Shown piece after piece: positions 4,106 through 57,517 of a stretch of 64,000 nucleotides of DNA (position 1 is the stretch's first letter; each line of letters opens with the position of its first letter). The notes beneath the pieces are model-generated. The model was not told where the DNA came from and ran no database searches. It saw only the letters and a program-made list of their open reading frames with translations. Position numbers and translations under genes: made by a program. Source of the stretch: Magallana gigas (Eukaryota); the NCBI RefSeq assembly GCF_963853765.1, contig NC_088853.1:39060001-39124000 (forward strand), written 5' to 3'.

Positions 4106-4309
4106 TATAGTGTTTTTACACCTATATCATAAGTGGGTTGCCCCGAACTTACCGATACATAGCTGATTTGGTCTGTATTGGAATACGGCTTGTTCTCGTT
4201 TAGGCTGCAGTCCAAAGTGATCGGGGTCTTCACCATGAGCTCCCGCCAGGTGACGTCACAGCCCGTCATCATAGGTAACTCGTCCTTGGAGTAGTCGACA
4301 ACCACTACA
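4106..4309 (-). repeat. 3' LTR of element 1
   Basis: Direct repeat of 12958-13161; minus-strand ends TGTAG...CTATA; contains TGACGTCA (4251-4258) and CG|GTAAGT (4152-4147). Confidence 0.95.
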
Positions 4310-4327
4310 CTCCCCTCCGTTTTCTTC
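4310..4327 (-). other. Polypurine tract of element 1
   Basis: Minus strand GAAGAAAACGGAGGGGAG immediately before the 3' LTR. Confidence 0.85.
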
Positions 4328-4600
4328 GAAGGGACTCGGCCCACACTACCAGTAGGCCGGCTCCGTCCACTCCACTAAGCTGGACTTACAACCAACACAT
4401 CACCAGGGGGCGCATAACGCCCATCCCAATCAATACTGGGATCAACATCCCAATCTATACTGGGATCAACAGCCCTCACTTTTACGAGTTCAGAATATGG
4501 GCAGATGGGGCCATACAAGACATGATGGCCTCCGCCCAATAGAAAACGCCAACTAACCGTCCAGGAAACAGGGTCTGGGGGGACATAGGAGGGCGCGTAC

Positions 4601-5609
4601 CTACCACTCCTCCAGGATCAAGATGTGGACCCGGCGGGTTCTAGCATACCCGCGAGGATAGTCTACTGCTATGTACCCTCCTGTCGCAGTCCCAGGTGGC
4701 GGGCGGGGGAACTCCGGAGAGAACTCTACTCCCCTCGCTCTTCCTGCAACCCAGGGGTCCCAGGGCTCCAAGGCGCCCACCAGCTCATCCTCGGACGAGG
4801 TCGGGTCTGGGCCATAGTCCTCCGGCTCCTCCTCGGGCGGGGTCGCTGCTTCATCTACTTCGGTCTCCTCCCGTCTGAAGCTCTCGAGGGGTAGTGGCTT
4901 CATCGTCCTCGGACTCCTCCTGTCTGAAGCTCTCTGGAGGGGTAGTGGCGTCATCGTCCTCGGACTCCTCCAGGCAGATGCTCCCCAGAACTGGGGGATC
5001 AGGGGCATCCCAATCCTCATGGCAAGGACCCGGGGGCGGGGGTGGCAAGAGCCTAAACATCCCGTACTGCGACAATGGGTGCCCGCTGACTGTCTCGTTG
5101 CTCCACAGCTCCCGGTAGGCCCTCCTTAGGTCCGGGCCCAACCGGGAAACTAGATGTGCCTGTACCCTCCAATGTAACAGGAGAGCGGGATGTAGCCGAC
5201 CGAACAGGGCAAATCGGTGAGGGGGGTCCTCCCCCACAAACCGGCACAGTGCCTCCATGGCCCGATTCAAATCGGTGGGAACACCGGCGGCGGGCTTCTG
5301 GAACACTTCGCCTGTTGGGACGTCCCTCGCCAGGTCCTCTGGAGTGGCTCCTTCCCCCAGCAGGTGGTGAGCCATCCACATAAGCACGCGGTACCGGAGG
5401 CTGGCCCCCGCCTCAGGGGGCACAGACCTCCGGAACACTGGATGTAGGTGGGCCACTGTCACATGAGTTCTCATGGTGCGGGTCCGCACCAGGCACCCCA
5501 GGAACGGGCAAGTCGAACTTGGCCCTCTCGAACCTCTCCTCCTCGCGGCCCCCGATGGTGGGGGGGGGGGGGCTGCGGGGCCTCTTCTTCATCGTAATCA
5601 TCGTCATCT
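4601..5609 (-). CDS. Element 1 3' accessory ORF (env position): acidic/proline N-terminus, C-X4-C-X9-H-X4-H zinc-finger-like motif, helical domain, acidic 17-aa repeats; broken by two frameshifts
   Basis: Frame of ORF 4851-5489 is open from 5588 and reads PPPPPSGAARRRGSRGPSSTCPFLGCLVRTRTMRTHVTVAHL. The second 51-bp repeat unit lacks 2 nt, which shifts reading into ORF 4601-5020 (ESFRREETEVDEAATPPEEEPED...). No signal peptide or transmembrane segment is visible. Confidence 0.7.
4830..4970 (-). repeat. 51-bp coding tandem repeat (about 2.7 copies) encoding EESEDDDATTPPESFRQ-like units
   Basis: Units at 4920-4970 and 4871-4919 (49 bp, 2-nt deletion), plus a diverged third unit. Confidence 0.85.
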
Positions 5610-7432
5610 CTGTAAAATAAAAAGACCCTATTAATAATAATAGATATTCCCCCCATACACGTCGGACACACGAACTTGTCCATAGTGGTGGCGTCCTCCG
5701 GCGAGACACCCACACACAAGCCGTGGTACCAGCAGTCGCACTGGTCACACTGGACCATTAGTTTTCCGTCATCAGGACGATGACAGAGGCAATAAAGCTC
5801 GGTATCTGTGGATGTTTCTGGTGACTTTTCTGTGGTATCAGAGGATGACTGGCTGGGCCTCGGGGGTCGGTCTCCTCCTCGATAGGGTTCCTCAGGAGTC
5901 TTACCCAGCTTCCGAGGACGTCCTCTGCGGCGAGCGGGTTGAGGCCGACAGTCATCACCCTTAACTGGGCCCTCGAGTGCTCTTTTTCCCCGAGAGGTCG
6001 AACGTTGCGCCTCGGAATCTTCATCAGATCTTACATCACATGGTGAACCACTCACGAACTTCTCCCGATATCGGGCCAGCCACAAGGGAATATCCCTGTC
6101 GTTACACTTCTTAAGGCGGTCGTGGTTTGCCACCATCACAGCTGTCTTAGTCTTCACACGGTAAAGGTAAGGTGACAGCCTCTTGAGGATGATTCCTGGG
6201 CCCTTCCAGGATGGGCTCAACTTCCGGCACTTGCCCTTAACAGTCGCCGTATCTAGCAGGTATACCAAGTCACCCTCCTCAAAGGGGCGGGTGGCTGCCT
6301 TAATGTCAAAATCCCTCTTCATCCGCTCTTCCGAGGTGTTCAAGCGTCTACGGGTGGTCTCATGCGCCGACTGTATCCTCTCCTCTAGATCTGTCACATA
6401 AGTACAAACATTCACCGGATCCTCTTGAAGGGGAGGCCTGTACATTAAGCTGGCTGGTGTGTTAACTTCCCTGCCCAACATCAGTTTATTGGCGGTGAAA
6501 CCAGAGTTACGGTTCACTGCAGAGCGCAGAGCCCCGGCTATCTGTGCAAGATGCTCATCCCAACAATCTTGGGCCTTGTCAATGTAGCATCTGACAGCAT
6601 CCATAAGAGTCCGATTATAACGTTCAACCTGTCCGTTAGCCGACGAGCGATAAGGGGTGGTACGAGCCTTGTGGATCTCCAAGAGTTCACACACCGCCGT
6701 GAACAGCTTGCTCTCAAAATTACGCCCTTGGTCTGTGAAGATCTGGAATGGGCACCCAAACCTAACGAAGAACTCATTTACCGCGGCTGTAGCTGTAACC
6801 TCGGCCGTCTGTGAAGGGAGGGGAATGCATTCCACCCATTTTGTGAACTGGTCTACCATGACCAAGACATACTCATTTCCCCTCGGAGTCCGTGGAAGTG
6901 GTCCTAAGAAGTCCAGGTGCACCCTCTCCATGGGTGCCCCAGCATGGTACTTAATCATCTCCGCCCTGGCGTGGCGCTGGGGACGTTTGTTTCTACTACA
7001 AGGGCAACAAGTACTGACAAAGTTCTCAGCCTCTCTCATCATTCTGTACCAAAAGAAGTGCTCCCTCAGCCTGGCTTTAGTTCGTTCGATTCCCTGGTGT
7101 CCAGCTGCCGGCACCTCGTGGCAAAGGCGCAGTACCTCTCGTCTCAGGTCACGGGGCACAATCAAAACTCTTTTCCTCTCTCCCCCCTCCTCTATCTCTT
7201 TCCAGAGGACTTTGTCACTATCCAGATATAACATATTCCTGTTGATGTAGTAGTGTTTCACAGCCGGGCTGGTCAGAAACAATTCGCCCTCGTCTGGTCC
7301 CAGTTCTCCCTCCAACCAATCCAAGATCAAGCCTAACTCTGGGTCATTAGAGTGGCTAAGACTCATCTCCTTAAGGGTGAGGCCTACAAGTGACGTCGGG
7401 CCTTCGAGGTCCGCCGGAGAGACTCCCATCAC
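5471..7432 (-). CDS. Element 1 pol, part 2: integrase (HHCC, DDE core) with C-terminal AT-hook and PHD finger
   Basis: HEVPAAGH...CCPC; HLDFLGP, FTDQGRNFES, NGQVERYNR; RRRGRPRK; LYCLCHRPDDGKLMVQCDQCDCWYHGLCVGVSPEDATTMDKFVCPTC. This frame is open from 7576, so the shift from ORF 7429-11424 lies between ~7430 and ~7575. Confidence 0.93.
   Translation of the reverse strand: MMGVSPADLEGPTSLVGLTLKEMSLSHSNDPELGLILDWLEGELGPDEGELFLTSPAVKHYYINRNMLYLDSDKVLWKEIEEGGERKRVLIVPRDLRREVLRLCHEVPAAGHQGIERTKARLREHFFWYRMMREAENFVSTCCPCSRNKRPQRHARAEMIKYHAGAPMERVHLDFLGPLPRTPRGNEYVLVMVDQFTKWVECIPLPSQTAEVTATAAVNEFFVRFGCPFQIFTDQGRNFESKLFTAVCELLEIHKARTTPYRSSANGQVERYNRTLMDAVRCYIDKAQDCWDEHLAQIAGALRSAVNRNSGFTANKLMLGREVNTPASLMYRPPLQEDPVNVCTYVTDLEERIQSAHETTRRRLNTSEERMKRDFDIKAATRPFEEGDLVYLLDTATVKGKCRKLSPSWKGPGIILKRLSPYLYRVKTKTAVMVANHDRLKKCNDRDIPLWLARYREKFVSGSPCDVRSDEDSEAQRSTSRGKRALEGPVKGDDCRPQPARRRGRPRKLGKTPEEPYRGGDRPPRPSQSSSDTTEKSPETSTDTELYCLCHRPDDGKLMVQCDQCDCWYHGLCVGVSPEDATTMDKFVCPTCMGGISIIINRVFLFYRDDDDYDEEEAPQPPPPHHRGPRGGEVREGQVRLARSWGAWCGPAP
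5610..5640 (-). promoter_or_regulatory. Predicted 3' splice acceptor of element 1
   Basis: Minus strand ...ctattattattaatagggtctttttattttacag|AGATGAC: an AT-rich island with branch-like sequence, pyrimidine tract and CAG, inside an otherwise GC-rich element. Confidence 0.75.
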
Positions 7433-10400
7433 GCAAGCGAACTGAGGGTACCTGCTGATCCGGATATGGGTCCTACAAGGTCCATCCGGGCTACTCTCGC
7501 CCTCAGAGTCAATCTCAGGATAGGAAAACCGCCAGTCCGTCCCAGAATTCCTCCGGATACATATCCGAGGGCTATCTCACTGACCGATGGCTGGGCTTCT
7601 CCGGATGCACGGCCGTCTACTGTCCCCTCGAGCTCGTCCTCCAGCAAAGGAGAGTAAATCCAACTTCCTGGCCTAGCAAGCGGGGCTACATCGTCTACCT
7701 CATCAGTAAATACATTCCACAATTGATGGGCTCTGGTGCACTTACGACATCCACCGCAGGGCAAGTCACTAAGGTTCACAGCGAAGTCCACCCCCTGACA
7801 TCTGGAAGACATGGTTGGTCGAGAAAGCGCGTCAGCATTCACGTGACGCTTACCGGGCCGATGTTGGATGACCATATTGTACTGGCTGAGCTCCTCCAAC
7901 CAACGAGCTAGTTGATCCTGGGGGTACCTAAAGTTCAGCAACCAGATGAGACTATGGTGGTCCGTACGTACAATAAATCTCCGGCCTAGTAGATAATGGC
8001 GATACATGCGTGTGAACCGGATGACGGCCAGGAGCTCTTTCCGAGTAGTACAGTATTTTTTCTGCTCCGCGGACAAGGTGAGGCTCCCGTAGGCTATGGT
8101 TCGCTCCTGCCCCTCTTGGACTTGGCACAGCTCGGCTCCTATGGCTTCTGCAGACGCATCTGTGTCCAGCACAAACTGATAATTGGCTGTAGGCAGAGCT
8201 AGTACCGGGGGTGAAGTGAGGGCTCTCCGGAGGTTCTCAAAGGCTGTCTGCTGCTCAGGCCCCCAAACAAAGGGTTTCTTGCCAGTGATGTTATACAGCG
8301 GATGCGCCATCTGAGCAAAGCCAGCAATAAACCCTCTATGGTAATTGGCGAAGCCTAGGAACCGCTCCACCTCCTTAACATTAGTGGGAGTCTCCCAATG
8401 CTTCACGGCCTCTATGTATTCATCACCCATCTCTACTCCCGTCCCGCTGACCTGCCTTCCCAGAAACTCTACTCGGCGCCGGAACAGCTCACACTTCTTG
8501 GGCTTGAACTTCAAGTCATAATCTCGGAATCGCTTGAACACTTGTCTCAAGATAGCCAGGTGGTAATCAAAATCACTCCCCAGCACCAGGGCGTCATCCA
8601 AGAAGGCCAGTACGATACTCCAGGTCAGCCCGCGTAACACTAAATTCATTGCCCGGGAGAAGGTAGCAGGGGCATTACAGAGACCAAACCCCATTCTCCG
8701 GAACTCAAATAGGCCATACCGGGTAATGGAGGCAGTTTTTTTTCTGTCCTTGGGGCTGATCATAATTTGATGAAATGCGGAGTTAGCGTCTAGCTTCGAG
8801 AACCACACATTTCCCGAGAGGGTATCAAGGCACTCATCAATGAGGGGAAGGGGAAAAACATCCTTCCGGGTGACATTGTTCAACCGGCGGTAGCCGAGAC
8901 ACCACCTGACTTGTCCGTCCTTCTTACGGATGAGGACTGGCGCTGAAGCCCACTCGGACATGGAGGGCTGGATCACTCCAGCGTCAAGCATCTTTTTGAG
9001 GTGCGCCTCCTCTTCGCCCGCAAAGAATACAGGAGTACGCCGCATCCTCTCCTTGACTGGCGGTGCATCTGCAGTGTCAATCTCATGCTCAAGGGCAGTG
9101 AAGTTTCCAAAATCAAACTCACTCCGGGCAAACACATCTTGGAACTCAGACAGCAGGCTAGCAAGTTGGGACCGCTCCTCATCACTCAACTCCGCAGAGG
9201 ATCGTTCTAGCAGGTCCTGCAAGTGGGTGGGTACTTCCGGTGGTGTGCCCTCGGTCCCACTCTCAGCCATGTTACGCACCTCCCTCATCAAATAGGGCAC
9301 CGGCACGTATGGCTCCGCCTCGACTGCCTCACCGATAACACTGCCCTCCTCTAAGGACACATCCTTTCCAGATGCATGAACTAAGCAAGCCAGGGACGCC
9401 TCTCCCGCAGCGTGATACGTATGTGGCATGATTAAGGCATCCGACAAGTCCTCAATCCTTGGCACAACCAGGTAATCTGACAGTCTTCTCTCTAGCCTAA
9501 GAGGGCACATGACTACAGAGCCTGCAGGAACTCGAACCTTCCTCACCAAAGTCACATTGGCCTCCGTCCGAGCATTCCCCCGTCCATAGGTCATCTGAAT
9601 TGTCTCACCGCCGAGAATCAGTATCCCATGCCTCAGGTCAAGCTGAGCACCGTGGTCTCTCATGATGTCCATCCCCAGTAGCATCTGGTCCTTGAGAGGA
9701 GCAACATACAGGTCAACCTTAAGTGTGCGCTGGCCCACACGAAAATCAAATGGTCCTGCTACAAAACCCTTAAGTCTCGCTCCGTGTCCTGCCTGCAGCA
9801 AGGTAACATGCCTTTTAATAGGGGGCTTTTGTTCTAGCTGGTCATAAAACATCTTCCCTAGGACACTTACCTCTGCCCCGGTGTCCGCCACGGCCTCTAT
9901 AGATAACCCTTGGATCCTCAATGGAACCGAGTAACTGGTTTGTGGGCGTACCTGCCCCACCACCACACACAGGTCCTCTACCTCGCCGGCCGTCTCACTG
10001 GACTGGGGCATCCAGTCCTCTTCAATGTCCTCCATGACCTCAACCTCAGTCTCCCTAAACTCGGCAATCTCTACACTGAAATCCGCCACACGCTCCGGAC
10101 TCTGGTCGGTTGGAGTTGAGAATCCCCTCCCCGGAACCACAGGTTCATCATCAGAAAACAGATCGGGTGACTTGGACCGCTCAAATCTCACCTTCAGCCC
10201 ACTACGTGCCTTCCCGCTCTTCATGCAAGAGCGGGCCTCAGCTGCTTGCTTGTCACAACTTGACTTCTCCGTAGGTTGTCCCTGAACTCTATCATCTACT
10301 GGGTGCCTTCCTGCCTCCGTATTTCTATCCGGGGTCAGCATGCGCACGGCTCCTGAAGGCCGATTCTCACTGGAGGATCTATTCCTGAACCTAGGTCCTC

Positions 10401-11424
10401 CGCGGTTCCCCTCTGCTGGGTTGGCACCTCGATTGGGTGGGGGGTGTCTCTCTGCCCCACCTACCCCTCCATCTGACCTACGCCTATTATCCAAAGGGCA
10501 CTCCCGACGGAAGTGTCTTCTTTCACCGCACCTGTAGCACAAACTTTCCCTGGGACCCCCACTCTTACTCATAGGTGATGGGGTGGCCTCAAGCTTCCCT
10601 CCGGCCTCCCTCAGGGCCATCTCCAGTTGATACACCCGTCCTCTCAAGTCCTGCACCTCTTTACTCTCTGACAAGGCGGGGGTGTCTCTCTTCTCCCTCA
10701 GGGCTTCTTCTAGCTTCTCATCATTAGACTTCCTGTCTGCCTCCACTTCCTCTGACCAAGCGACCTCCTCTGTCAACTCCCTCACTGTCTTATGCCGGTG
10801 AGGCTTGCTGCGGCGCGAGTGTTGGTAATACTGCATTCTGTCCAATGCCTCCTCGACCGTCTTAGGGCTGCCATCCAGCGCATGCAGGCCAGCGTCAACA
10901 TCTTCCGCACCATAGCATAGGCGGGGGATAGCCTGGGTGTGAATGTCTGGCAACTGGGGGAAAGCTCGTGTGGCTAATGTGAGCACACGATCTGCCCACT
11001 CTCTCAGGGACTCACCGCTGTTCTGCGTTGCCGACTGGAAATTGAGTTGGTGGGTGAGATCCGGAGCCGAGGTACCAAAGCGCTTGTCAAACTTCTTGAG
11101 GATGTCCTTAAACCGTGGACGGGGACAGACTTCCAGTAGGAGAGTATAATACTCGCTGGCTGCGCCCTCCAGGAAAAAGCAGAACTGGTCATGTTGCTCG
11201 ACCTTGGTCCATTGCTGGCTGCGCGAGAGCCTCACGAACTTATGAAGGAACGCCTTCCAGCTGGATTTGCCATCATACCGCAGGTCCTTGTACTTCGGCT
11301 TGCTACGGGGCGCAGGTGGCCTGTCGTCGTGACTGCGTAATGTGCGGCGCGAGGTAGTGGTAACAGGGTGGGGCAAGGGCTGGGTAGGTAATGCAAAGGG
11401 TGGACGATGTTGCCGGGTCAGCAA
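7429..11424 (-). CDS. Element 1 gag-pro-pol, part 1: capsid-like gag, CCHC knuckle, aspartic protease, RT, RNase H
   Basis: YDGKSSWKAF (gag); CYRCGERRHFRREC; VADTGAEVS (protease); YRRLN, PLPLIDE, MGFGLCNAPATF, FLDD (RT); LDTDAS, ELLAVI, TDHHSL, NADALSR (RNase H). Confidence 0.95.
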   Translation of the reverse strand: MLTRQHRPPFALPTQPLPHPVTTTSRRTLRSHDDRPPAPRSKPKYKDLRYDGKSSWKAFLHKFVRLSRSQQWTKVEQHDQFCFFLEGAASEYYTLLLEVCPRPRFKDILKKFDKRFGTSAPDLTHQLNFQSATQNSGESLREWADRVLTLATRAFPQLPDIHTQAIPRLCYGAEDVDAGLHALDGSPKTVEEALDRMQYYQHSRRSKPHRHKTVRELTEEVAWSEEVEADRKSNDEKLEEALREKRDTPALSESKEVQDLRGRVYQLEMALREAGGKLEATPSPMSKSGGPRESLCYRCGERRHFRRECPLDNRRRSDGGVGGAERHPPPNRGANPAEGNRGGPRFRNRSSSENRPSGAVRMLTPDRNTEAGRHPVDDRVQGQPTEKSSCDKQAAEARSCMKSGKARSGLKVRFERSKSPDLFSDDEPVVPGRGFSTPTDQSPERVADFSVEIAEFRETEVEVMEDIEEDWMPQSSETAGEVEDLCVVVGQVRPQTSYSVPLRIQGLSIEAVADTGAEVSVLGKMFYDQLEQKPPIKRHVTLLQAGHGARLKGFVAGPFDFRVGQRTLKVDLYVAPLKDQMLLGMDIMRDHGAQLDLRHGILILGGETIQMTYGRGNARTEANVTLVRKVRVPAGSVVMCPLRLERRLSDYLVVPRIEDLSDALIMPHTYHAAGEASLACLVHASGKDVSLEEGSVIGEAVEAEPYVPVPYLMREVRNMAESGTEGTPPEVPTHLQDLLERSSAELSDEERSQLASLLSEFQDVFARSEFDFGNFTALEHEIDTADAPPVKERMRRTPVFFAGEEEAHLKKMLDAGVIQPSMSEWASAPVLIRKKDGQVRWCLGYRRLNNVTRKDVFPLPLIDECLDTLSGNVWFSKLDANSAFHQIMISPKDRKKTASITRYGLFEFRRMGFGLCNAPATFSRAMNLVLRGLTWSIVLAFLDDALVLGSDFDYHLAILRQVFKRFRDYDLKFKPKKCELFRRRVEFLGRQVSGTGVEMGDEYIEAVKHWETPTNVKEVERFLGFANYHRGFIAGFAQMAHPLYNITGKKPFVWGPEQQTAFENLRRALTSPPVLALPTANYQFVLDTDASAEAIGAELCQVQEGQERTIAYGSLTLSAEQKKYCTTRKELLAVIRFTRMYRHYLLGRRFIVRTDHHSLIWLLNFRYPQDQLARWLEELSQYNMVIQHRPGKRHVNADALSRPTMSSRCQGVDFAVNLSDLPCGGCRKCTRAHQLWNVFTDEVDDVAPLARPGSWIYSPLLEDELEGTVDGRASGEAQPSVSEIALGYVSGGILGRTGGFPILRLTLRARVARMDLVGPISGSAGTLSSLA

Positions 11425-12422
11425 ACTGGGCGGCCCATCGGGGGCCTGGGTTCTCCCGTAATCAGGTGAAGGGTCCGGTCCCTGGGTGGGGGGCCATTGG
11501 GTTGCTGTTGGGCATGAGCATGTATGCTAGGATTAAGAAAGTGTACCCCGGTCTCCCTGGGAGAGGACTCGTTCATTTGTGGGTAAACCTGAGCTACTCT
11601 ACCTCCCCCCTCCTGTCTAAAATAATAAGGCTGGGGCGGCACCACAGGTGCAGGGGCAGGATAACCAAGGCTGCTAGATGGAGGTACGAACAGGCCCCAG
11701 GGGGTGCCATCAGGGCTAACTACAGTTTGATAGCCCGGGAAGGGGTAGGGCGTGGTATGTGCATAGCCTGGGTCGACATGTGACTGGTGTAATTGCCCCG
11801 AGGTGGAAGTCCCCCCACTAGATGTCACTACAATCTGTCCCTGGGTCGTAGAGGTCTGCGTTGTAGAGCCCTGCAACTGCAAATCAGTGAGCTGGGCCGA
11901 ACTAGGAGCTACATAATTGTTCCCCGAAAACGGATTCGTCAGGACTGAGGAGGCCCCCAGGTGACTGGCATGCTGACCCCCCAAGGGCTGGGGTGCGGGG
12001 CCTGTGGCCCCAGCAGGAGAGGGGTGGGGCTGCTGACCAGGGGTGGGTGGGGAATCGAAGACCAGGGACTGGGGTGCCAGTACATGACTGGCTGAAGATA
12101 CCGGCTGAGGCAAAATAACAGGATCCCTGGACTCAAGTGTAGCCTTAGCACTATGGCCTGGTGGGGATTTCCCAGGGGTAGGGGCCACATAAGAACCGCG
12201 TGAGATGGGGTCCCCATATATAGCACTGGGTGGGACAAAGTCATAATCCCCCACCGGCGAACTGCATCTTATTACAGACCCCTGACTAACACACGAATGT
12301 ACTTCACTAGGGACCTGAAACTGTGCTGGCCTAATATAACTGTCACCCTGGGTACTACCAACCCCCCTCCCCTGACGGTTGGGCAACGCAGTTTCACCCC
12401 GAAGGTACCCCGTACTACTCAC
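11418..12422 (-). CDS. Element 1 Pro/Ser/Gly/Thr-rich ORF, probably the disordered N-terminal extension of gag
   Basis: 334 open codons that overlap both neighbouring ORFs in the -1 frame; no early ATG (the track start is GTG). Confidence 0.55.
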   Translation of the reverse strand: MSSTGYLRGETALPNRQGRGVGSTQGDSYIRPAQFQVPSEVHSCVSQGSVIRCSSPVGDYDFVPPSAIYGDPISRGSYVAPTPGKSPPGHSAKATLESRDPVILPQPVSSASHVLAPQSLVFDSPPTPGQQPHPSPAGATGPAPQPLGGQHASHLGASSVLTNPFSGNNYVAPSSAQLTDLQLQGSTTQTSTTQGQIVVTSSGGTSTSGQLHQSHVDPGYAHTTPYPFPGYQTVVSPDGTPWGLFVPPSSSLGYPAPAPVVPPQPYYFRQEGGGRVAQVYPQMNESSPRETGVHFLNPSIHAHAQQQPNGPPPRDRTLHLITGEPRPPMGRPVC

Positions 12423-12649
12423 CGGGGGGTGACTTCCTCGCTGTCTGAAGCAGAGTACATGTGCTCTCTCACCGATGATCTAGGAGTGTAAAGGTGCTCA
12501 TCCTCTTCATCACTTAGCCAACCATAACTATGCTTGCGAGACGAGCGCCCAATTTGAACAGAAGGTTCCCCCATGGGCGTTATGGTGTCATCGCTATCAC
12601 TTTCGCTAAGCCCTAACGCTGCAAAGGCATTCTCTAAAGAATCGTTCAT
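12423..12649 (-). CDS. Element 1 leader ORF / predicted first coding exon (MNDSLENAF...EEVTPR)
   Basis: First internal ATG I found after the leader (aaaATGa, 12649). The ORF ends at CG|GTGAGT: its TGA stop lies inside a consensus splice donor (intron start 12422, phase 2). Confidence 0.6.
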
Positions 12650-12945
12650 TTTCAAAATGGCGCACACCGGAGCACGTGGCCAAGACAGAAAAATAGTGCA
12701 AAGATAAATGCAAAATATAAAAGTATGATGCAAAAACAACGTTGCCTAAACAAATAAAAGAATCCTACTCTAAGCTAGCAATACTATCATAGAATGCTAT
12801 ATGTTCAATAAGTTTAACCACGCGGAGCCCCCAAAAATGGCGGCTACACACGTTTATTTTGAAAAATTTGACTCAAGAAGAAAAAAATTCTGACAGACTA
12901 CGGGAAAAAAAATTTCCTTTCACTAAATCGGAGTTCGGGCCTCGA

Positions 12946-48810: not shown

Positions 48811-49066
48811 ATTGCAAATCAAAACAACTTACTGTTATTACAACAAGGGGGGGGGGCAAACATTCAGAAGTTAAAATAGACACTTTAAATGCCTGGATAA
48901 AATTTGATAGATTTATTTGAATTAACAACACTGTAACTTTGATTAAATCCACAAGGTCTGCACACTGTTCTGTTGTTCTACGTTTTGAAAAAAAATAATG
49001 TAGACCTATTACCACATTTTAAACAATTTTGAAAGGTTATTAGAATTTAAAAAAAAAACCGCTTAC

Positions 49067-49327
49067 CATACACTTCTACTTCACAAAGGAGAATGTCAAC
49101 ATATCTATAATAATCGTCAGGGTAGACAACTCCTGGTAGTCTCTCGTTGTAGTAGATGACATATTGTCCATGAACAAAACAATTTGTTGTGAAGACAGGG
49201 GGTATTGTGTGTATTGTGAAGTTGTCGTCCTTGAAACACAACGTTCCCTGTGATCTATCCGTGGTATTGGAGACATACACAGAGAATCCAAGTAAATGCT
49301 CTGCTATGTACGACCGAAAGCTGGAAT
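49067..49327 (-). CDS. Host gene A exon: C-terminal half of the F-type-lectin-like domain
   Basis: Acceptor ttttgtacag| and donor |GTAAGC; 261 nt, phase 1-1; LLGFSVYVSNTTDRSQGTLCFKD...GQYVIYYNERL...LCEVEVYG. Confidence 0.88.
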
Positions 49328-50371: not shown

Positions 50372-50931
50372 TGTAACGTGTTTTACCTAATCAAAATACC
50401 GGGTTCTTTTTAAGGGATATAAATATATTAATTTTACTTCTACTCTTCCTGACTACAATGATTAAACTTGATTTACAATTGATTGGAGGCGAATTTAAAC
50501 TACTTAGTATTGTTTAACTGGGATACTTATCATCGCGTGCCTTGGTAAAGGGTTCTTAATATTACAGGAAGTCAGGCGCCTCAGTCATATAGACTTACTA
50601 CCTCCCGACAACCAATTAAGATTCCAATTCCAATTACCGCTGAGGAGTATTCCTTCCCCTAGTCTGCCTACTTACAACCTCACAAATTAATTCTATCAGG
50701 TTTCTATTACCTTCCAGGTCTTGCTGGTTCTTCTGAGAGCTGTGGGTTTCAGACCTACTCTGCCTTATCTGCTAGATGAGTCTGCTTATATACCCTTGGG
50801 AGAGTTTACTTCCGAGGGGGGACCAGGTCATTCCATTTCAATGGGTGTACTCTGTACGCGTACGGGTGTGCTTTATTACTTAAACTTCATGGGTGTGTTT
50901 CTCTGCTTGTCACTACCCCTATTCCGTTTCA
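50372..50931 (-). repeat. 3' LTR of element 2
   Basis: Direct repeat of 56958-57517. Confidence 0.95.
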
Positions 50932-50945
50932 CTACCCACGCCTCT
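50932..50945 (-). other. Polypurine tract of element 2
   Basis: Minus strand AGAGGCGTGGGTAG abutting the 3' LTR. Confidence 0.7.
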
Positions 50946-51199
50946 AACACCGTGCGTCCCGCACGCTAAATCAATGAGAATCAAATAATTTTTTTTTTTT
51001 TTTTTTTTAAATTTTACATGGTAACTAATTGTTACCATATGCATGAAACTTGACAGCCATCAAACAATTTAAAGAACATCTACATGTAAATTTACATAGT
51101 TCAAGTAACCAACTGTTACTAGGTAAAACAAAAGAATCTTCTTCTCAGCAAAACACCATTTGCATGCAAAAAGCACATTCATTAAGAATATCACAAATC

Positions 51200-51877
51200 T
51201 CAGTCATTCCAGATATCTTCCTCGAAACGCTCCACTGTCTCACCATCTTTCTGAAATTTTCTGGTGACTCTTATTATTTTCTGGTGACTCTTTCCTGCCT
51301 TTAGATTTGTATCAGTCTGTGTTTCAGCGTCAGCTTTCTTGCTCTTCTTAGAACAGCATGAGCAGTGTTGGTCATCCAAGGGCGCCTTCTGCACCACCAA
51401 AGCACTGTTGCTAGGTTCCTCTCTCTCTCTCTCTTCATTAGTAGGAACGTCTATGGTCACCGTTTCTGATGTCTCCGTGTTTCTTCTTTTCACCCCTGGT
51501 AAAACTGGAGACGTCTTCTTCCTGTACGTTCTACTGGCTTCTCTGTCCTTCTCCTCCTCAAACAAGAGTTCTCCTGGATCCTCCTGCCAATCCTCTTCAT
51601 CTTCCACGCGTCTTGGTGGAGATTTCTCAGGTTCAGTGGACTCCAGTGGGGTAGTACAATGGTCCTGACCAGGGTGCAATCGTTGCATATGTTTCACCAA
51701 CACAATCTTCCTACCAAAGGCATGGTCGCAAAAATAACATTCAAATCTTCTCTTCTGAATATCTGCCATTCCACATTTTAACAGGTGTTCACTCCACTTG
51801 TCTTTAGTTGGCAGTTGAACCAGACAAATGGAACATAGGAATCCAGGTTTTCGTTGGGTAACTTTAGTCTTCGGCAT
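51200..51877 (-). CDS. Element 2 3' accessory ORF (env position): 225-aa protein with two zinc fingers
   Basis: Intact ATG-to-stop ORF starting 33 nt after the pol stop; CSIC-X12-H-X3-C and CYFC-X12-H-X4-H fingers, acidic patch EDEEDWQEDP, basic patch RKK...KRR, and AETQTD; no TM or signal peptide visible. Confidence 0.85.
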   Translation of the reverse strand: MPKTKVTQRKPGFLCSICLVQLPTKDKWSEHLLKCGMADIQKRRFECYFCDHAFGRKIVLVKHMQRLHPGQDHCTTPLESTEPEKSPPRRVEDEEDWQEDPGELLFEEEKDREASRTYRKKTSPVLPGVKRRNTETSETVTIDVPTNEEREREEPSNSALVVQKAPLDDQHCSCCSKKSKKADAETQTDTNLKAGKSHQKIIRVTRKFQKDGETVERFEEDIWND

Positions 51878-51878
51878 T

Positions 51879-51909
51879 CTGTCCTACAAACTGAAATAAC
51901 ATAATGACA
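51879..51909 (-). promoter_or_regulatory. Predicted 3' splice acceptor(s) of element 2
   Basis: Directly after the pol TAA: tgtcattatgttatttCAG|tttgTAG|gaCAG|aATG, with AGs ending at 51891, 51884 and 51879. Confidence 0.7.
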
Positions 51910-54546
51910 TTAAACCTTGTAATCGAACTCATAGTCGGAATGCCAAGCTGGTCTTTTTCTTTGTCTACGACCAGCATATGCTAGCTCTATCTCATTCAAT
52001 TCTGAATTACCTAACAGTACCACCTGAGACTCATCGTCAGAGATGACATCATTACCCTTATCATGGTTTTCTAAATCCTTAGCATCTATAACCTGATCAT
52101 GATTCTCTAAACTTTCGCTATCGCCTTCATCTCTAAGGACCTGAGTCCCGTAAGGTCTTAACCTATCAACATGTACACCAAGTGTCTTGGTATCAGTTTC
52201 TTTTCTGATTTTGAAAGTAACATCAGAGTGCTGTTTTACAATGATGTAAGGACCATACCAGAAACTCATAAGTTTAGGTGATTTCCCAACAGCTCTCTGT
52301 GGAAAGTATACTAACACCTTGTCACCCTCTTCAAACTTCTTTTTCACCACATTTTGATCATGGTATCTCTTTTGGCGCAACATAGATTGTTCTGTTATTT
52401 TGCGCGTGTTTGCATGCGCCTCTTCCAAAGTTTTCCTAAGTTCCCATACCCAGTCATGTACATTAGTGGGTTTTAGTCTGTTTGGAAGCTCATACATGAT
52501 ATCAATTGGGGTAGCAGTCTCTCTTCCCATCATCAACATATTCGGAGTGTAACCCGTGCTTTCATGCTGAGAGGATCGGTAAGCCATTAGAACATATGGT
52601 AATTTCTTATCCCAGTCTTCCTGGTAGTCAGAGACATAAGCGCTTAACATGGTAGCTAAGGTTTTGTTAAATCTCTCAAACATGCCGTCCGATTTCGGGT
52701 GGAACGCCGTCGTGCGGGTCTTTTTGATACCGAGTAGCTCACACATGTCTTTGAACAACCGACTCTCGTACTGCCTGCCTTGGTCACTGTGTACGATTTC
52801 AGGTACACCATATTTACAGAAAAACTGTTCCACCAGAACTTTCGCCACGGTTTGGGACTCAATATTTTTCAAAGGATACGCCTCTGTCCATTTGGTAAAA
52901 TAGTCAGATACAACGATTATATATTTGTTGCCAGATTCAGTCTCTGGTAAAGGTCCCATTATGTCACTGGCCACACGTTCTAAAGGATAGCCTGTTTGGT
53001 CAATTTGCATGTGTGACTTTCCAGAAGAACGAACTTTTCTTTTCCGGCATTGTGGACATCCGGTTACATAAATTCGGACATCTGCCTGTAAACCTGGCCA
53101 ATAAAACCTTTCTCGTACTCTAGCAAGAGTCTTTCTAACACCTAGACGTCCCGATGTTTTTGCATCATGACACTCTCTGAGTATTTCTTTCCTCTCCGAC
53201 ATTGGCACCAGCACCTGGTAAATGGTTTTTCGATCACCTTCCCATCTTCTACAGAGTAGATTGTCTCTTACTTCCAGGAATTTGTACTGCGACCAAAGAG
53301 ATTTGATTACGTTACTTTCATGTTTAATTTGGATGTATTCTGGGCGATCATTTAGCTCTAACCATTCTCTGACTTTCTTCAAATCAGAATCACCCTCTTG
53401 CAGACATTGCACTGTAGAACTACTATCTGGAGCAGTGTCAGGTGTTACACTTTGTACAACCTTCTCTCCATATCCACACTGGCGACACGGATATCTACTC
53501 AAACTGTCCGCATTTCCATGTTTCGCACCAGGTCTATGAGTGATTTCCAAGTCATAGGTACTGAGTAATTCGATCCACCTGGCTACTTGTCCCTGAGGAT
53601 CTTTGAAACTCATTAACCACTTTAAGGCGCTATGATCAGTGCGCACAATGACTTTGTGACCATACAGGTAGTGTCGAAAATGTTTGCATGCAAAGACAAG
53701 AGCCATCAATTCCTTTCTGGTGACGCAGTATTTTCTTTCACTCTTAGACAGTGTTCTACTTGCGTATGATATCACCTTGGTCGTACCATCTATATCCTGG
53801 GACAACACTGCACCAAGTCCCACTTGACTTGCGTCTGTGTCAAGTATAAAGGGCACTGAAAAGTTTGGGTGTGCCAAAACTGGGGCAGTTGTCAAACACT
53901 TTTTAAGATTATCAAAGGCACTCTGACAATCAGACGTCCATTTAAATTCTCTTCCTTTTTCCGTTAACCGAAATAACGGTTTTGCCAGGCTAGAGAATCC
54001 AGCTATAAATCTCCGGTAATAGCTGCATACACCCACGAAGGATCGCACCTCACTGACCTCAATCGGTATTGGCCATTGTTCCACAACAGCTACTTTGGCC
54101 GGATCTGTTTGTACTCCGTCGCCAGATACCTTATACCCCAGAAACAGAACTTCCTTCTTGAACAAAGTGCATTTTGCAGCTTTGAGCTTTAGTCCTGCCA
54201 ATTGTAACTTGGTCAATACTTGTTCTAAGTTTTGAAGCGTTTCATCAAACGTTTTACCAAAGATAATGATATCATCAATATATACCAAACATACATTGAA
54301 ATTAAGTCCAGCCAACACTACTTCCATTAGTCTTTCAAACGTAGCCGGACTGTTACAAAGTCCAAATGGCATCACGGTAAATTGAAAAAGGCCACTTCTG
54401 GTCACAAATGCAGTCTTTGGTTTATCGGTCTCGTTCATTTCTACCTGCCAGTAGCCCGAGTGAAGATCTAGAGTGCAAAACCAAGACGCTCCTTCCAGTC
54501 GATCTAGGGAGTCATCAATACGCGGTAAAGGGTAGGCGTCCTTCAC
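51910..54546 (-). CDS. Element 2 pol: RT (N-terminally truncated), RNase H, integrase
   Basis: KDAYPLPRID, LDLHSGYWQ, MPFGLCNSPATF, YIDD; LDTDAS, TDHSAL, NADSLSR; SDIMGP, HSDQGRQYES, DGMFERFN; second His of the HHCC motif appears replaced (SGRLG). Confidence 0.95.
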   Translation of the reverse strand: MKDAYPLPRIDDSLDRLEGASWFCTLDLHSGYWQVEMNETDKPKTAFVTRSGLFQFTVMPFGLCNSPATFERLMEVVLAGLNFNVCLVYIDDIIIFGKTFDETLQNLEQVLTKLQLAGLKLKAAKCTLFKKEVLFLGYKVSGDGVQTDPAKVAVVEQWPIPIEVSEVRSFVGVCSYYRRFIAGFSSLAKPLFRLTEKGREFKWTSDCQSAFDNLKKCLTTAPVLAHPNFSVPFILDTDASQVGLGAVLSQDIDGTTKVISYASRTLSKSERKYCVTRKELMALVFACKHFRHYLYGHKVIVRTDHSALKWLMSFKDPQGQVARWIELLSTYDLEITHRPGAKHGNADSLSRYPCRQCGYGEKVVQSVTPDTAPDSSSTVQCLQEGDSDLKKVREWLELNDRPEYIQIKHESNVIKSLWSQYKFLEVRDNLLCRRWEGDRKTIYQVLVPMSERKEILRECHDAKTSGRLGVRKTLARVRERFYWPGLQADVRIYVTGCPQCRKRKVRSSGKSHMQIDQTGYPLERVASDIMGPLPETESGNKYIIVVSDYFTKWTEAYPLKNIESQTVAKVLVEQFFCKYGVPEIVHSDQGRQYESRLFKDMCELLGIKKTRTTAFHPKSDGMFERFNKTLATMLSAYVSDYQEDWDKKLPYVLMAYRSSQHESTGYTPNMLMMGRETATPIDIMYELPNRLKPTNVHDWVWELRKTLEEAHANTRKITEQSMLRQKRYHDQNVVKKKFEEGDKVLVYFPQRAVGKSPKLMSFWYGPYIIVKQHSDVTFKIRKETDTKTLGVHVDRLRPYGTQVLRDEGDSESLENHDQVIDAKDLENHDKGNDVISDDESQVVLLGNSELNEIELAYAGRRQRKRPAWHSDYEFDYKV

Positions 54547-54566
54547 CGTTTAGTTGTTTAAGGTAG

Positions 54567-56594
54567 TCAACCGATAGTCATCAGTCTAACTGGTATTTTC
54601 TCAGATGAATTGACTACAGATCGAGCTACCAATGCTCTTCCGCTGTCCTGAAACTTGGCACAAGGTTCAATTAACAACGGTATCTGTGGGAATTTCGGTA
54701 GGTCTAACACTTGACCCGGGCATACCATTTCGCTTTTAGGAGGAATGGATATGGTTTCACATAGGCTCACCCGAAAGCAGCCAATATTTCCTTGCACATC
54801 TAATTCATGTTCTATCCCACGTACATACATCTTGGTCTTGCATACGTCAACTAGGCATTCATTCGTTTGTAAGAAATCTAATCCAATAATGCCATCTGCC
54901 TTTATGTTTGCTATCACTGCCTGAGTCTCAAATTCTTGAGAACCAAGTTTAATGCCAAATACTCCTTTTCCTTGTACCGTAAGCGGCGCACCATCAGCCC
55001 CTACAATTCTCTGTGATATCGGTAAAAGGGAAGTTCTGCTGATTTTGTCTATTTCTGCATACAGTTGATCTGACAAAATAGTCAGAGTGGCTCCCGTATC
55101 TAACAGTAAATTACACTGAGTGCCATTTACCTTTGCCTTGACAAACAACCCAGATTCATGGCTGTCTTGGTCAACTTTCATGGCCGTTGTACTGGAAACT
55201 CTCGAATCATTCCTCTTATTGGAATCTGTATTCCCTTTGACACTGGATGAATCCTTTACCTCTGGTTTTTGCATTCTAGTGCCACCTCTATTGTTTCTCA
55301 GAAAACAATCTTTGATCATGTGGCCTTTCTTTCCACAATGGTGGCATTTAAAAGGAAATCTACCTTCCTTGGCTATATTACCCGTATCTGCAGCAGCAGA
55401 TGATTCTTTTACCGAGACATTAACAATTTTCTTTTCTAAATCTTTAAGAGACGCCTGTATCTCATCTCTTAATTGCCTGAGTTCCTCCCTAACAGTAGGA
55501 TCTTGTGCATCAGGTGTAACATGGTTATTGCTCGTGGTCCTGACATATCCACCATTTTCTCTTCTTTGACGTTCTGCTCTAGAGAATGCCTCAATCTCAA
55601 CTGCACAACGTATTGCTTCATTGAGTGACTTTGGTCGAGATTGCTGAATGCGTAGACGCATATCAAACTCTGTCAAAGCATCTATGAACTGATCTTTGGC
55701 GATCATCTCTGTAACTTCTCTGGGAGCAGTACGATATGCCAGATGCGCTAGACGTCGAATACTTTCACCAAGTTCTGGTAAAGATTCATTTGGTCTTTGG
55801 CGCTTCTCTCTGAGCATTGCCCGGTAGAGTTCAGTTTGATTCGCGGGTGCAAATCTCGATTCCAAAGCTTCGCATAACTCTGCGTAGGTCCTATTCACTC
55901 CTGATCTCATGTTACCGAGGACGGTCTGGGCCTGTCCTCTTAAAGAAGCTGCCAGGTACAAGCTTTTCTGCTGGGAGTTCCATGAATTGATATCGCTACA
56001 GGCCTCAAAATGCGCTTTGTAATCAATCCATGATGCAGTGCCGTCATATGTTGCCGGTTTCATCACTGTTTTACCATAGTCCTGAGACCGTTCATTCGAA
56101 ATATTTTTAGTTGTAGTAATAGTAGGAAACGATCGGTAAACGGATTCCTGCACTGGATTCCAATTATTTGACCACGTAACCGTAGACGAATCTGATGATG
56201 ACACCGCACACCGAGTACTTAGGTAAGGGTTGGGTGTCAAATATGTCTCGGTGAACACTGGTTGGCTTATGGTTCCTAAGCGCGGCAGCCTGTTTTCAGT
56301 ATCTGTAACCTTCGGCAGTGCACGATCCTTCTCAACTTCGTACAATGTGTACCCAGGCTTTGGGTATTCAAAGTGACCAGGTGCATACCCCGTGTTCTTC
56401 GGTGTTTTGAAATTTATTTCAAAACTGTCGCCAGGGTTGCGATTGCTTTTGTAGCCCATGTCTACTCCGGAGTCTGGCATTGGCGAATGTTTGGCAAACT
56501 GTGGAGTTGATCGTAATCTTTCAATTTCTGCTCGGAGCTTTTCCCTTCTGGCATCTATGGCACTGAGGTCGGCTAACAAATCGTCTTCACTCAT
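54567..56594 (-). CDS. Element 2 gag-protease
   Basis: KPATYDGTASWIDYKAHF (capsid-like), CHHCGKKGHMIKDC (CCHC knuckle), LLDTGATLT (protease). Confidence 0.95.
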   Translation of the reverse strand: MSEDDLLADLSAIDARREKLRAEIERLRSTPQFAKHSPMPDSGVDMGYKSNRNPGDSFEINFKTPKNTGYAPGHFEYPKPGYTLYEVEKDRALPKVTDTENRLPRLGTISQPVFTETYLTPNPYLSTRCAVSSSDSSTVTWSNNWNPVQESVYRSFPTITTTKNISNERSQDYGKTVMKPATYDGTASWIDYKAHFEACSDINSWNSQQKSLYLAASLRGQAQTVLGNMRSGVNRTYAELCEALESRFAPANQTELYRAMLREKRQRPNESLPELGESIRRLAHLAYRTAPREVTEMIAKDQFIDALTEFDMRLRIQQSRPKSLNEAIRCAVEIEAFSRAERQRRENGGYVRTTSNNHVTPDAQDPTVREELRQLRDEIQASLKDLEKKIVNVSVKESSAAADTGNIAKEGRFPFKCHHCGKKGHMIKDCFLRNNRGGTRMQKPEVKDSSSVKGNTDSNKRNDSRVSSTTAMKVDQDSHESGLFVKAKVNGTQCNLLLDTGATLTILSDQLYAEIDKISRTSLLPISQRIVGADGAPLTVQGKGVFGIKLGSQEFETQAVIANIKADGIIGLDFLQTNECLVDVCKTKMYVRGIEHELDVQGNIGCFRVSLCETISIPPKSEMVCPGQVLDLPKFPQIPLLIEPCAKFQDSGRALVARSVVNSSEKIPVRLMTIG

Positions 56595-56805
56595 TCTGGT
56601 ATTATATTCTAACTGGGTTACAATTTCCTATAAATGCACTTGGTTAACTTTGCACTCGGTAAACTTTGCACTTGGTAAACTTCACCGAGTAATATTCATT
56701 ACCCGGAGACTAAGCAAACCAATAACAAGCCTAACAATACACGAAGTAACGCTGTACACACGCGGCGCAACCGACCTTTGGATAACTATACACAAGCTCT
56801 AATAT

Positions 56806-56812
56806 ACTTACC
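56806..56812 (-). promoter_or_regulatory. Predicted 5' splice donor in the leader of element 2
   Basis: TTG|GTAAGT (intron start 56811), between the PBS and the gag ATG at 56594. Confidence 0.65.
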
Positions 56813-56944
56813 AAGTCACAAATACTCGGTCCACTATACCCGTCAAAAATTAATTGGTAAAATATTAACCTGGTAAAACAAATCTACATAAAACAACAAA
56901 ACCAAAATAAATCAACAATTTAATCAGTTCCTATCCCTTAACCA

Positions 56945-56954
56945 GCTGCCACCA
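56945..56954 (-). other. Primer binding site of element 2 (tRNA-Leu type)
   Basis: TGGTGGCAGC three nt after the 5' LTR; matches the start of the tRNA-Leu-type PBS TGGTGGCAGCGG. Confidence 0.75.
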
Positions 56955-56957
56955 AAA

Positions 56958-57517
56958 TGTAACGTGTTTTACCTAAACAAAATACCGAGTTCTTTTTAAG
57001 GGATATAAATATATTAGTTTTACTTCTACACTTCCTGAGTACAATGATTAAACTTGATTTACAATTGATTGGAGGCGAATTTAAACTACTTAGTATTGTT
57101 TAACTGGGATACTTATCCCCGCGTGCCTTGGTAAAGGGTTCTTAATATTACAGGAAGTCAGGCGCCTCAGTCATATAGACTTACTACCTCCCGACAACCA
57201 ATTAAGATTCCAATTCCAATTACCGCTGAGGAGTATTCCTTCCCCTAGTCTGCCTACTTACAAACTCACAAATTACTTCTATCAGGTTTCTATTACCTTC
57301 CAGGTCTTGCTGGTTCTTCTGAGAGCTGTGGGTTTCAGACCTACTCTGCCTTATCTGCTAGATGAGTCTGCTTATATACGCTTGGGAGAGTTTACTTCCA
57401 AGGGGGGACCAGGTCATTCCATTTCAATGGGTGTACTCTGTACGTGTACGGGTGTGCTTTATTACTTAAACTTCATGGGTGTGTTTCTCTGCTTGTCACT
57501 ACCCCTATTCCGTTTCA
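56958..57517 (-). repeat. 5' LTR of element 2
   Basis: Direct repeat of 50372-50931, followed by TSD ATAT. Confidence 0.95.

What the first reader, a model, noticed from the sequence alone, without database searches (positions are those of the whole stretch)
4106..57517. Two different Gypsy lineages share the same 'spliced zinc-finger gene in the env slot' layout, each next to the 5' part of a paralogous lectin-EGF gene
The elements differ in LTR length and sequence, primer tRNA (Lys versus Leu) and gag organisation. Their accessory proteins show no similarity that I can see. Yet both have a 5' donor, an acceptor right after pol, and a Zn-finger plus acidic ORF before the PPT. This suggests a widespread, under-annotated class of regulatory third genes in mollusc Gypsy elements. 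Both inserted in sense orientation near the lectin-domain exons of neighbouring paralogues, which may reflect a targeting preference.
Basis: inference. Interest (0 to 1): 0.72.

Follow-up and report, generated by a model that had tools for sequence, protein, structure and literature searches.

The report
Zinc-finger third genes in oyster retrotransposons
Two jumping genes in an oyster genome belong to one large clade whose families mostly carry, behind their usual genes, a conserved zinc-finger gene that is likely made from a spliced message and likely regulates the element, and that public databases list as ordinary host genes.

Summary
Both elements are real, young, damaged Gypsy copies (A 4106-13161, Lys primer; B 50372-57517, Leu primer). 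They are not independent cases: they sit in one RT-RNase H clade (100/96) in which 36 of 43 sampled families carry a post-integrase zinc-finger frame, against 1 of 33 outside. B has a separate 225-aa ORF3 (two fingers, basic motif, LC8-type TQT, beta-hairpin) with full-length relatives in oysters, scallops and pearl oyster. A differs: integrase, PHD finger, acidic patch and a finger-helical domain form one frame in intact relatives. A's acceptor lies inside that frame and matches in phase an ATG mini-exon in the LTR, kept in two subfamilies. Relatives fuse this domain to TatD, SGNH or metallo-beta-lactamase domains. The A and B proteins share only a finger. Splice signals are enriched (acceptor before ORF3 in 16 of 30, before gag in 0 of 24), but shallow RNA-seq showed no spliced read, so splicing is inferred. 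Targeting of lectin-EGF genes is not supported: the window lies in a tandem array, and 1 of 28 other copies is within 30 kb of a listed exon. Function untested. New variant of a known kind.

The parts
4106..13161 (-). Element A: Gypsy-type LTR retrotransposon, damaged copy; target duplication TATG
12958..13161 (-). A 5' LTR (204 bp)
12999..13012 (-). A: ATG-TAT-CG|GTAAGT, start codon 8 nt before a donor (intron would begin at 13004); same spacing in both subfamilies of the family
   Evidence: splicing inferred
12946..12956 (-). A primer-binding site, 11 nt complementary to tRNA-Lys(CTT)
7432..12649 (-). A gag (long Pro-rich N-terminus, broken by frameshifts), protease, RT, RNase H
5471..7576 (-). 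A integrase frame with C-terminal tail
5657..5791 (-). A PHD finger, in the integrase frame
   Evidence: Pfam PF00628, E 6.6e-9
5609..5635 (-). A predicted acceptor (branch-like TTAAT, pyrimidine tract, CAG|A; exon would start at 5609, phase 2), lying inside the reading frame
5052..5528 (-). A finger-helical domain (CxxxxC...HxxxxH, then PxLLxHW); out of frame with the upstream part in this copy
4601..5051 (-). A acidic/Pro-rich tail of the accessory frame (second frameshift near 4890)
4106..4309 (-). A 3' LTR, preceded by the polypurine tract
50372..57517 (-). Element B: Gypsy-type LTR retrotransposon with a deletion at the start of RT; target duplication ATAT
56958..57517 (-). B 5' LTR with TATA box at 57378
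57291..57299 (-). B candidate donor AAG|GTAATA, 82 nt after TATA (position shared by the B-type families)
   Evidence: inferred
56806..56814 (-). B second candidate donor TTG|GTAAGT in the 5' UTR (family-specific)
   Evidence: inferred
56945..56954 (-). B primer-binding site, 10 nt complementary to tRNA-Leu(AAG)
51910..56594 (-). B gag-pol (one frame of 1727 codons in the full-length copy L112; broken here by the deletion near 54570)
51884..51909 (-). B predicted acceptor TTATTTCAG| (exon would start at 51890); a second AG at 51885-51884 is not kept in L110
51200..51877 (-). B ORF3, 225 aa: C2HC plus C2H2 fingers, acidic W-x-x-DP motif, RK-x-T-x-P basic motif, TQT motif, C-terminal beta-hairpin
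50372..50931 (-). B 3' LTR, preceded by the polypurine tract
2133..2952 (-). Host lectin-EGF gene 1: signal-peptide exon, intron 2357-2900 (spliced in reads), first lectin exon
29130..49327 (-). Host lectin-EGF gene 2: second lectin exon (49067-49327), a decayed duplicate (48574-48813) and at least eight EGF-like exons

Best explanation
A and B belong to one clade of oyster Gypsy retrotransposons in which most families carry a conserved zinc-finger accessory gene behind integrase, likely expressed from a spliced message that joins a short leader in the 5' LTR to an acceptor at the end of pol, and likely acting in the nucleus as a regulator of the element's own RNA or DNA. Shown: the clade, the conserved frames, the motifs, and the enrichment of splice signals. 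Inferred: the LTR transcript splices by default to the accessory message, which lacks primer site and gag-pol. In B a non-coding leader meets ORF3's own ATG. In A an ATG mini-exon supplies the start in phase, and read-through also gives an integrase-PHD-accessory fusion. Predicted: the B protein is nuclear, dimerised by host LC8 through its TQT motif, and binds element nucleic acid with its finger pair. My single most likely job for it is a Rev/CERV-like switch that lets unspliced genomic RNA survive and leave the nucleus (about 0.35 alone; transcriptional or anti-silencing action about 0.3). The A-type domain would be an adaptor that other families use to carry a nuclease or esterase. The position beside lectin-EGF exons is most likely chance.
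For: Clade of 43 family representatives, IQ-TREE 100/96. Finger frame in 36 of 43 families inside and 1 of 33 outside; 7 integrase-first families were not scored. 17 invariant columns, including the start Met, in 19 B-type proteins at 25-70% identity. dN/dS 0.12 and 0.14 for two A-domain pairs. Strict acceptor within 25 nt of the ORF3 start in 16 of 30 families, against 0 of 24 gag starts (p 9e-6) and 13 of 232 3'-UTR windows. Donor-like site 55-125 nt after TATA in 13 of 15 B-type families, against 28 of 196 control windows (window chosen after looking). ATG-TAY-MG|GTRAGT 8 nt before the donor in 6 of 6 A-family LTRs from two subfamilies, in phase with the acceptor. [TVI]QT motif in the 16 of 16 B-type ORF3s scored; the stricter motif occurs 12 times in 3,420 aa against 2 in 23,170 aa of pol. 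LC8 complex: weak support, 0.56 against best control 0.02; runs share at least 84% of contacts, partner pLDDT at least 47; only 5 of 78 solved pairs and all 4 passing mismatches scored 0.60 or under, and the pass may be from likeness to solved LC8-peptide complexes. No transmembrane stretch (hydropathy maximum 0.6 against 2.7-2.9 in three env-like ORF3s). Precedent: CERV of Cer1 (PMC10309623).
Against: No spliced read: 321 raw reads on B from three runs (about 1% of each run read) gave no joint into the acceptor and no depth step at it; a contig runs unspliced through it (51021-52830). On A, depth was 3.4 or less, on both strands, with no listed joint (39 joints were not shown), while a host intron was seen in 23 reads. 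Without the TATA anchor the donor test was not significant (p 0.12); 14 of 30 ORF3 starts fail the strict acceptor rule. Three families nested among B-type elements lack ORF3 yet have near-identical LTRs and long open frames (L075/76/79, L074/77, L096), so ORF3 is not needed in cis. The three complete A1 copies in this genome share a frameshift between acidic patch and finger domain. A and B proteins show no homology beyond a finger, so one function for both is an assumption. Many TQT peptides do not bind LC8 (PMC6607443, passages). No experiment bears on function.
Confidence: 0.55

Rival explanations
1. ORF3 is a DNA-binding transactivator or anti-silencing factor: the finger pair binds the LTR, the acidic region activates, and LC8 binding dimerises it or draws LC8 away from host silencing complexes.
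For: Finger pair plus acidic region plus TQT resembles the LC8-regulated transcription factor ASCIZ in layout (PMC5963919, search listing). LC8 dimerises the fly PICTS silencing complex (PMC7861614, search listing). Public annotators name the relatives after transcription factors.
Against: The names come from generic finger similarity. Two fingers give limited DNA specificity (own knowledge). PICTS was described in Drosophila; its presence in bivalves was not tested. No shared LTR target motif was sought.
Confidence: 0.3
2. The accessory frame is expressed without splicing (reinitiation after the pol stop, an internal promoter, or in-frame fusion to pol), and the acceptor-like tracts are AT-rich spacers.
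For: No junction in reads. In-frame fusion exists in A relatives and in L067/L071. ORF3 starts 30-190 nt after the pol stop in B-type families.
Against: Equally AT-rich gag leaders score 0 of 24. The A mini-exon keeps ATG spacing and phase in two subfamilies whose LTRs differ otherwise. Read depth was too low to exclude a minor or tissue-restricted message.
Confidence: 0.15
3. The A and B third genes were captured independently and share only a convenient slot; they do different jobs, the A type being an enzyme-carrying effector against host defence.
For: No profile similarity beyond a finger. At least four unrelated-looking ORF3 types occur in the clade. TatD, SGNH and metallo-beta-lactamase fusions occur only on the A-type domain. 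One finger ORF3 lies outside the clade (L124). Rotifer elements captured ORF3 enzymes repeatedly (PMC5408684).
Against: 36 of 43 against 1 of 33 is hard to get from scattered captures; seven changes on the tree fit one gain with losses plus L124 (direction not resolved). Nearly all types begin with a finger near the start.
Confidence: 0.35
4. These elements target the 5' part of lectin-EGF genes in sense orientation.
For: Two insertions about 1.1 kb from 5' exons, both sense. A third, unrelated Gypsy in the same array (L162) and L071 beside another paralogue also lie on the gene strand. A carries a PHD finger that could read chromatin.
Against: The family has at least 150 scored and 549 candidate exon hits, 36 listed ones within C1:37.3-39.4 Mb, so any insertion there is near one. 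Of other copies, 0 of 20 A-family and 1 of 8 B-family loci lie within 30 kb of a listed exon, and that one is antisense; 2 of 83 clade loci against 0 of 57 others (144 of the 150 listed exons typed, list incomplete). One surveyed locus, L071, held a lectin exon in its flank (104 loci with both LTRs gave 273 kb of flank).
Confidence: 0.07

Closest known systems
CERV of the C. elegans Gypsy element Cer1 (PMC10309623; abstract, passages and section 15 read)
   Same: [quoted passage not shown]
   Different: CERV has five exons sharing gag sequence, a C4-type loop, 517 aa, and no obvious homology outside nematodes. Here one leader exon in the LTR is predicted, with C2HC/C2H2 fingers and a TQT motif. 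I did not align CERV to these proteins. Export function is shown for CERV and untested here.
Enzyme ORF3s of bdelloid rotifer LTR retrotransposons Juno and Vesta (PMC5408684; parts 1-2 of 5 read)
   Same: ORF3 in the env position that encodes captured enzymes, including a GDSL/SGNH esterase; described as typically separate spliced units.
   Different: The rotifer enzymes are GDSL and DEDDy; no TatD in the paper (one search count 0). Here the enzymes are fused to a conserved finger-helical domain, and most families have fingers without an enzyme.
Spliced env of errantiviruses and retroviruses
   Same: Leader donor joined to an acceptor at the end of pol; A's ATG mini-exon recalls the short coding leader of Drosophila gypsy env (recalled, not checked).
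   Different: No signal peptide or transmembrane segment. True env-like ORF3s occur in another clade of this genome (L169, Pfam Baculo_F, E 5e-15).
Chromoviruses and other elements with chromatin-reader domains (PMC6673714 and PMC12440569, passages)
   Same: A reader domain at the integrase C-terminus (PHD in A and in L043, L046-L049).
   Different: PHD rather than chromodomain; absent from B; no targeting shown.
MolGy and other mollusc Gypsy clades (PMC6238403, passages)
   Same: 21 Gypsy clades defined in molluscs; this clade is probably one or several of them.
   Different: The text has no occurrence of 'ORF', 'zinc' or 'PBS'; I had no reference sequences to name the clade.

Membership tests
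Ty3/Gypsy LTR retrotransposon | Direct terminal repeats, target duplication, primer site, PPT | tested here: met
Ty3/Gypsy LTR retrotransposon | Order gag-protease-RT-RNase H-integrase | tested here: met
Env-bearing (errantivirus-like) element | ORF3 is a membrane glycoprotein with signal peptide and transmembrane anchor | tested here: not met
   hydropathy maximum 0.6 for B and for A1 relative L039, against 2.7-2.9 for env-like L149, L160, L169; no env family in Pfam
Spliced ORF3 (subgenomic message) | Donor and acceptor signals in compatible position and phase | tested here: met
   donor enrichment rests on a window chosen after inspection
Spliced ORF3 (subgenomic message) | Junction-spanning RNA reads | tested here: inconclusive
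   none listed, at low depth
Rev/CERV-like export regulator | Sequence or fold homology to CERV or Rev | tested here: inconclusive
   no direct alignment made; the A domain has no fold match; the B model was not fold-searched
Rev/CERV-like export regulator | Nuclear protein needed for export of unspliced RNA | not testable with these tools
   needs cell experiments
LC8 (DYNLL) client | TQT-anchored motif in a disordered region | tested here: met
   T186-Q187-T188 near-invariant; region without secondary structure, pLDDT 51-58; motif per PMC6607443 (passages)
LC8 (DYNLL) client | Binding to LC8 | tested here: inconclusive
   weak predicted support, 0.56 against control 0.02
TatD nuclease (relatives L047, L048, L052; not the window elements) | TatD domain with metal-binding motifs | tested here: met
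   Pfam PF01026, E 1e-22 to 2e-40; five motifs present in each; activity untested
Named mollusc clade (MolGy1-16, C-clade, Cigr-1) | Grouping with reference RT sequences | not testable with these tools
   no reference elements were available

The most novel reading that the evidence does not exclude
A dominant bivalve Gypsy clade has an ancestral, spliced accessory-gene slot that works like the regulatory genes of complex retroviruses. One branch makes an LC8-dimerised zinc-finger regulator; another makes a zinc-finger domain with no known fold match that serves as a docking module for captured nucleases and esterases. Many 'host' zinc-finger and TatD gene models in bivalve annotations would then be transposon genes, and LC8 recruitment would be a route of counter-defence.
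Probability: 0.3. Interest if true: 0.8.

Novelty: new variant of a known kind. Interest (0 to 1): 0.58.

Why it matters
Spliced non-envelope third genes are known from single cases (Cer1, rotifer elements). Here the slot marks most families of a large, recently active clade in farmed bivalves, with two conserved protein families for which I found no description in the papers searched. It gives testable predictions (exact junctions, an LC8 motif, a nuclease fusion) and shows that bivalve gene sets contain retrotransposon ORF3s labelled as transcription factors.

Tried and rejected
RNA lays on B and A: no junction, too shallow to decide. The 684-nt skip at 55054-55739 (4 reads, ends CT..TG) is non-canonical and is more likely an internally deleted copy. 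Donor near 12420 in A (end of the short ORF): rejected as the main donor; the ORF is a frameshift artefact and in L039/L040 the site is phase 0, which would meet stops after the acceptor. Donor test over the whole 5' region: not significant between ORF3-bearing and other elements (p 0.12). Single-sequence search with the A domain among longer proteins: no hit; the profile found 11. Atlas searches: generic finger clusters only, recognition scores 2095 and 1718, below the tool's mark. Fold searches of the A-domain model (pLDDT 92): no Foldseek hit at E 0.001 in PDB or viral models, best VIA Z 3.3; this does not show that the fold is new. dS was saturated for six B-clade ORF3 pairs and one A pair, and two pairs failed on stop codons. 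No genomic copy joining the leader to ORF3 was seen among the 44 loci compared or by an exact leader pattern (only the window's two LTRs). Literature searches found no description of these ORF3 families; Repbase, GyDB, subscription papers and supplements were not seen and may hold notes on them. Earlier-findings look-ups by sequence, by place and by two word sets gave nothing.
Full report
Setting. The window is G000:C1:39060001-39124000. Near-identical proteins carry Magallana/Crassostrea names, so the host is an oyster. Self-comparison shows two LTR pairs: element A at 4106-13161 and element B at 50372-57517, both on the minus strand, with target duplications TATG and ATAT. Pfam gives the Gypsy domain order in both. 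The primer sites match genomic tRNA-Lys(CTT) and tRNA-Leu(AAG). Both copies are young (LTRs 98.5% and 97.7% alike) but damaged: B lacks about 470-480 bp at the start of RT compared with copy L112 and an RNA contig; A has several frameshifts.

Element B. Thirty-two bases after the pol stop an ATG opens a 225-aa frame, preceded by TTATTTCAG. It is open over its full length in three of the other genomic copies that cover it and broken or truncated in the rest. Sixteen database relatives were found at 41-96% identity; most full-length ones start at the same Met. An alignment of 19 proteins at 25-70% identity has 17 invariant columns: the start Met, a C2HC and a C2H2 finger, a Trp in an acidic patch, RK-x-T-x-P, and QT of a TQT motif. 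The model has ordered fingers, a disordered middle and a C-terminal beta-hairpin. A profile search returned, among the best 150 rows, 27 single-stretch near-full-length hits; the rest were mostly generic multi-finger proteins. I did not see the genomic context of these database proteins.

Element A. The integrase frame continues into a PHD finger, then through the acceptor-like sequence, which reads as NRVFLFYR, into an acidic patch. In L043, L016, L020 and the P0017 cluster the frame runs on into a finger-helical domain and a second acidic tail. In the window copy, L039 and L040 it is broken at a C-run near 5570. So A has no separate third gene after pol in the sense of B. It does have a striking splice design: the LTR holds ATG-TAY-MG followed by GTRAGT, with the ATG exactly 8 nt before the donor, in all six LTRs examined from two subfamilies. 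That phase matches the acceptor at 5609 and would give a protein starting M-Y-R-D. In the A1 subfamily there is no other Met before the finger, so this leader would be needed. Sister families (L046-L050, L047, L048) stop after the PHD and start ORF3 at their own ATG, which suggests that read-through arose in A's family (inference). The domain folds confidently (pLDDT 92, 14 sequences) with no structural match, and shows dN/dS of 0.12 and 0.14 in two pairs.

Survey. I fetched 140 loci chosen from three searches. The sample favours long open frames and relatives of A and B; it covers a small part of about 1,500 candidates. With the two window copies, 140 had usable RT and RNase H (L055 and L178 dropped) and fell into 83 families. 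The smallest clade holding A and B has 43 families, with IQ-TREE support 100/96 (midpoint root, no named references). A finger-bearing frame after integrase occurs in 36 of 43 families inside and 1 of 33 outside; 7 integrase-first families were not scored. The types inside differ: B-type proteins, A-type domains, and several others, many ending in TQT-like motifs. A-type domains are fused to TatD (L047, L048, L052), an SGNH-like domain (L062; Pfam E 6e-4, below cut-off, but GSS, GIRG, GSND and DGIH motifs present) or a metallo-beta-lactamase domain (L051). The genome has 36 TatD-like matches. Of 18 further TatD loci fetched, 6 have pol sequence within the 10 kb and 12 hold the A-type domain or part of it. 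A- and B-type profiles align only over a finger.

Splicing. A strict acceptor lies within 25 nt of the ORF3 start in 16 of 30 families, against 0 of 24 gag starts and 13 of 232 3'-UTR windows. Donors are weaker. Over the whole 5' region the two groups do not differ (p 0.12). Anchored on the TATA box, 13 of 15 B-type families have a donor-like site at +55 to +125, against 28 of 196 control windows; I chose that window after looking, the scoring table is recalled, and single-family shuffle tests reach 0.05 or less in only 3 of 15. RNA: B is transcribed mainly from its own strand in run X21, but 321 reads from three runs showed no junction and a contig crosses the acceptor unspliced. A is barely covered, while the neighbouring host intron was seen in 23 reads. 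Tissues are unknown and about 1% of each run was read. Splicing therefore remains an inference (about 0.8).

Mechanism. The predicted spliced message would lose primer site and gag-pol, so the element needs some unspliced RNA to escape. Cer1 solves this with CERV, a spliced, nuclear, finger-bearing product of the same slot (PMC10309623: abstract, passages, section 15). B-type ORF3 has the parts of a nuclear regulator, and its TQT motif fits the LC8 consensus (PMC6607443, passages; PMC3078936, search listing). Prediction with the oyster's own LC8 gave weak support (0.56 against 0.02). Three nested families have lost ORF3 and still have near-identical LTRs. This fits a factor that is dispensable once the acceptor is gone, or one supplied in trans, and fits a counter-defence factor equally well. 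I rank RNA export or stability slightly above transcriptional control; neither is tested.

Insertion site. The host family is very large and the window lies in a tandem array. Other copies of A and B are not near listed paralogues (0 of 20 and 1 of 8 within 30 kb). Sense orientation in four cases near these genes is too few to judge. Targeting is not supported.

Novelty. Spliced non-envelope ORF3s, enzyme capture and reader domains have precedents (PMC10309623; PMC5408684, parts 1-2; PMC6673714, passages). The mollusc survey (PMC6238403, passages) does not discuss ORFs. Nine literature searches found no account of these two families or of TatD in LTR elements; Repbase, GyDB and supplements were not seen. 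Earlier notes of this scan describe a sea-urchin TatD ORF3 clade and a finger cassette fused to integrase in another genome; they are leads that agree, not evidence. Verdict: a real, clade-wide feature and a new variant of a known kind; splicing likely, function open, targeting unsupported.

Noticed in passing
L192:1536-5066 (G000:C9 near 29.74 Mb); L182:6441-8621; L183:1474-3669: Long frames (1177, 727, 732 aa) with the A-type domain (twice in L192) and a TatD domain but no pol within the 10 kb fetched; possibly domesticated or carried by another element.
   Followed up: partly
L149, L160, L169, L138: A separate Gypsy clade with 670-770-aa env-like ORF3 (signal and transmembrane stretches; L169 matches Baculo_F, E 5e-15).
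   Followed up: partly
L067, L071: A family in which a B-like finger frame with several xQT/xQC motifs is fused in frame to integrase (315-aa tail).
   Followed up: no
L119, L129-L132, L134-L137, L139: Seven families with integrase upstream of RT (Gmr1-like order; name recalled).
   Followed up: no
L046, L047, L052, L062 gag N-termini: Gag begins with a segment like 'VNIN.A....L..IPGIG...A..I', resembling a helix-hairpin-helix DNA-binding motif (recalled; not scanned).
   Followed up: no
window 48574-48813: Decayed tandem duplicate of the second lectin exon; similar duplicates appear 500 bp from several paralogues in the array.
   Followed up: partly
window 33484-34156 and 41914-42579: A 670-bp repeat present in both orientations, with internal inverted similarity (MITE-like).
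   Followed up: no
window 14900-16000: Fragmented frames on the minus strand that look like a decayed DDE transposase with a SWIM-like finger (by eye).
   Followed up: no
window 1250-1610, 13525-14247, 61116-61743: Abundant repeat family with about 167-bp tandem units; it drew thousands of RNA reads.
   Followed up: no
B LTR, window 57463 and 57378: The only AATAAA in B's LTR lies upstream of the TATA box, and B-type LTRs have 300-700 nt after TATA; the poly(A) site is unexplained.
   Followed up: no
L179:1489-1755 (G000:C3 near 44.66 Mb): Intronless LC8 dynein light chain gene of the host, used as the partner.
   Followed up: yes
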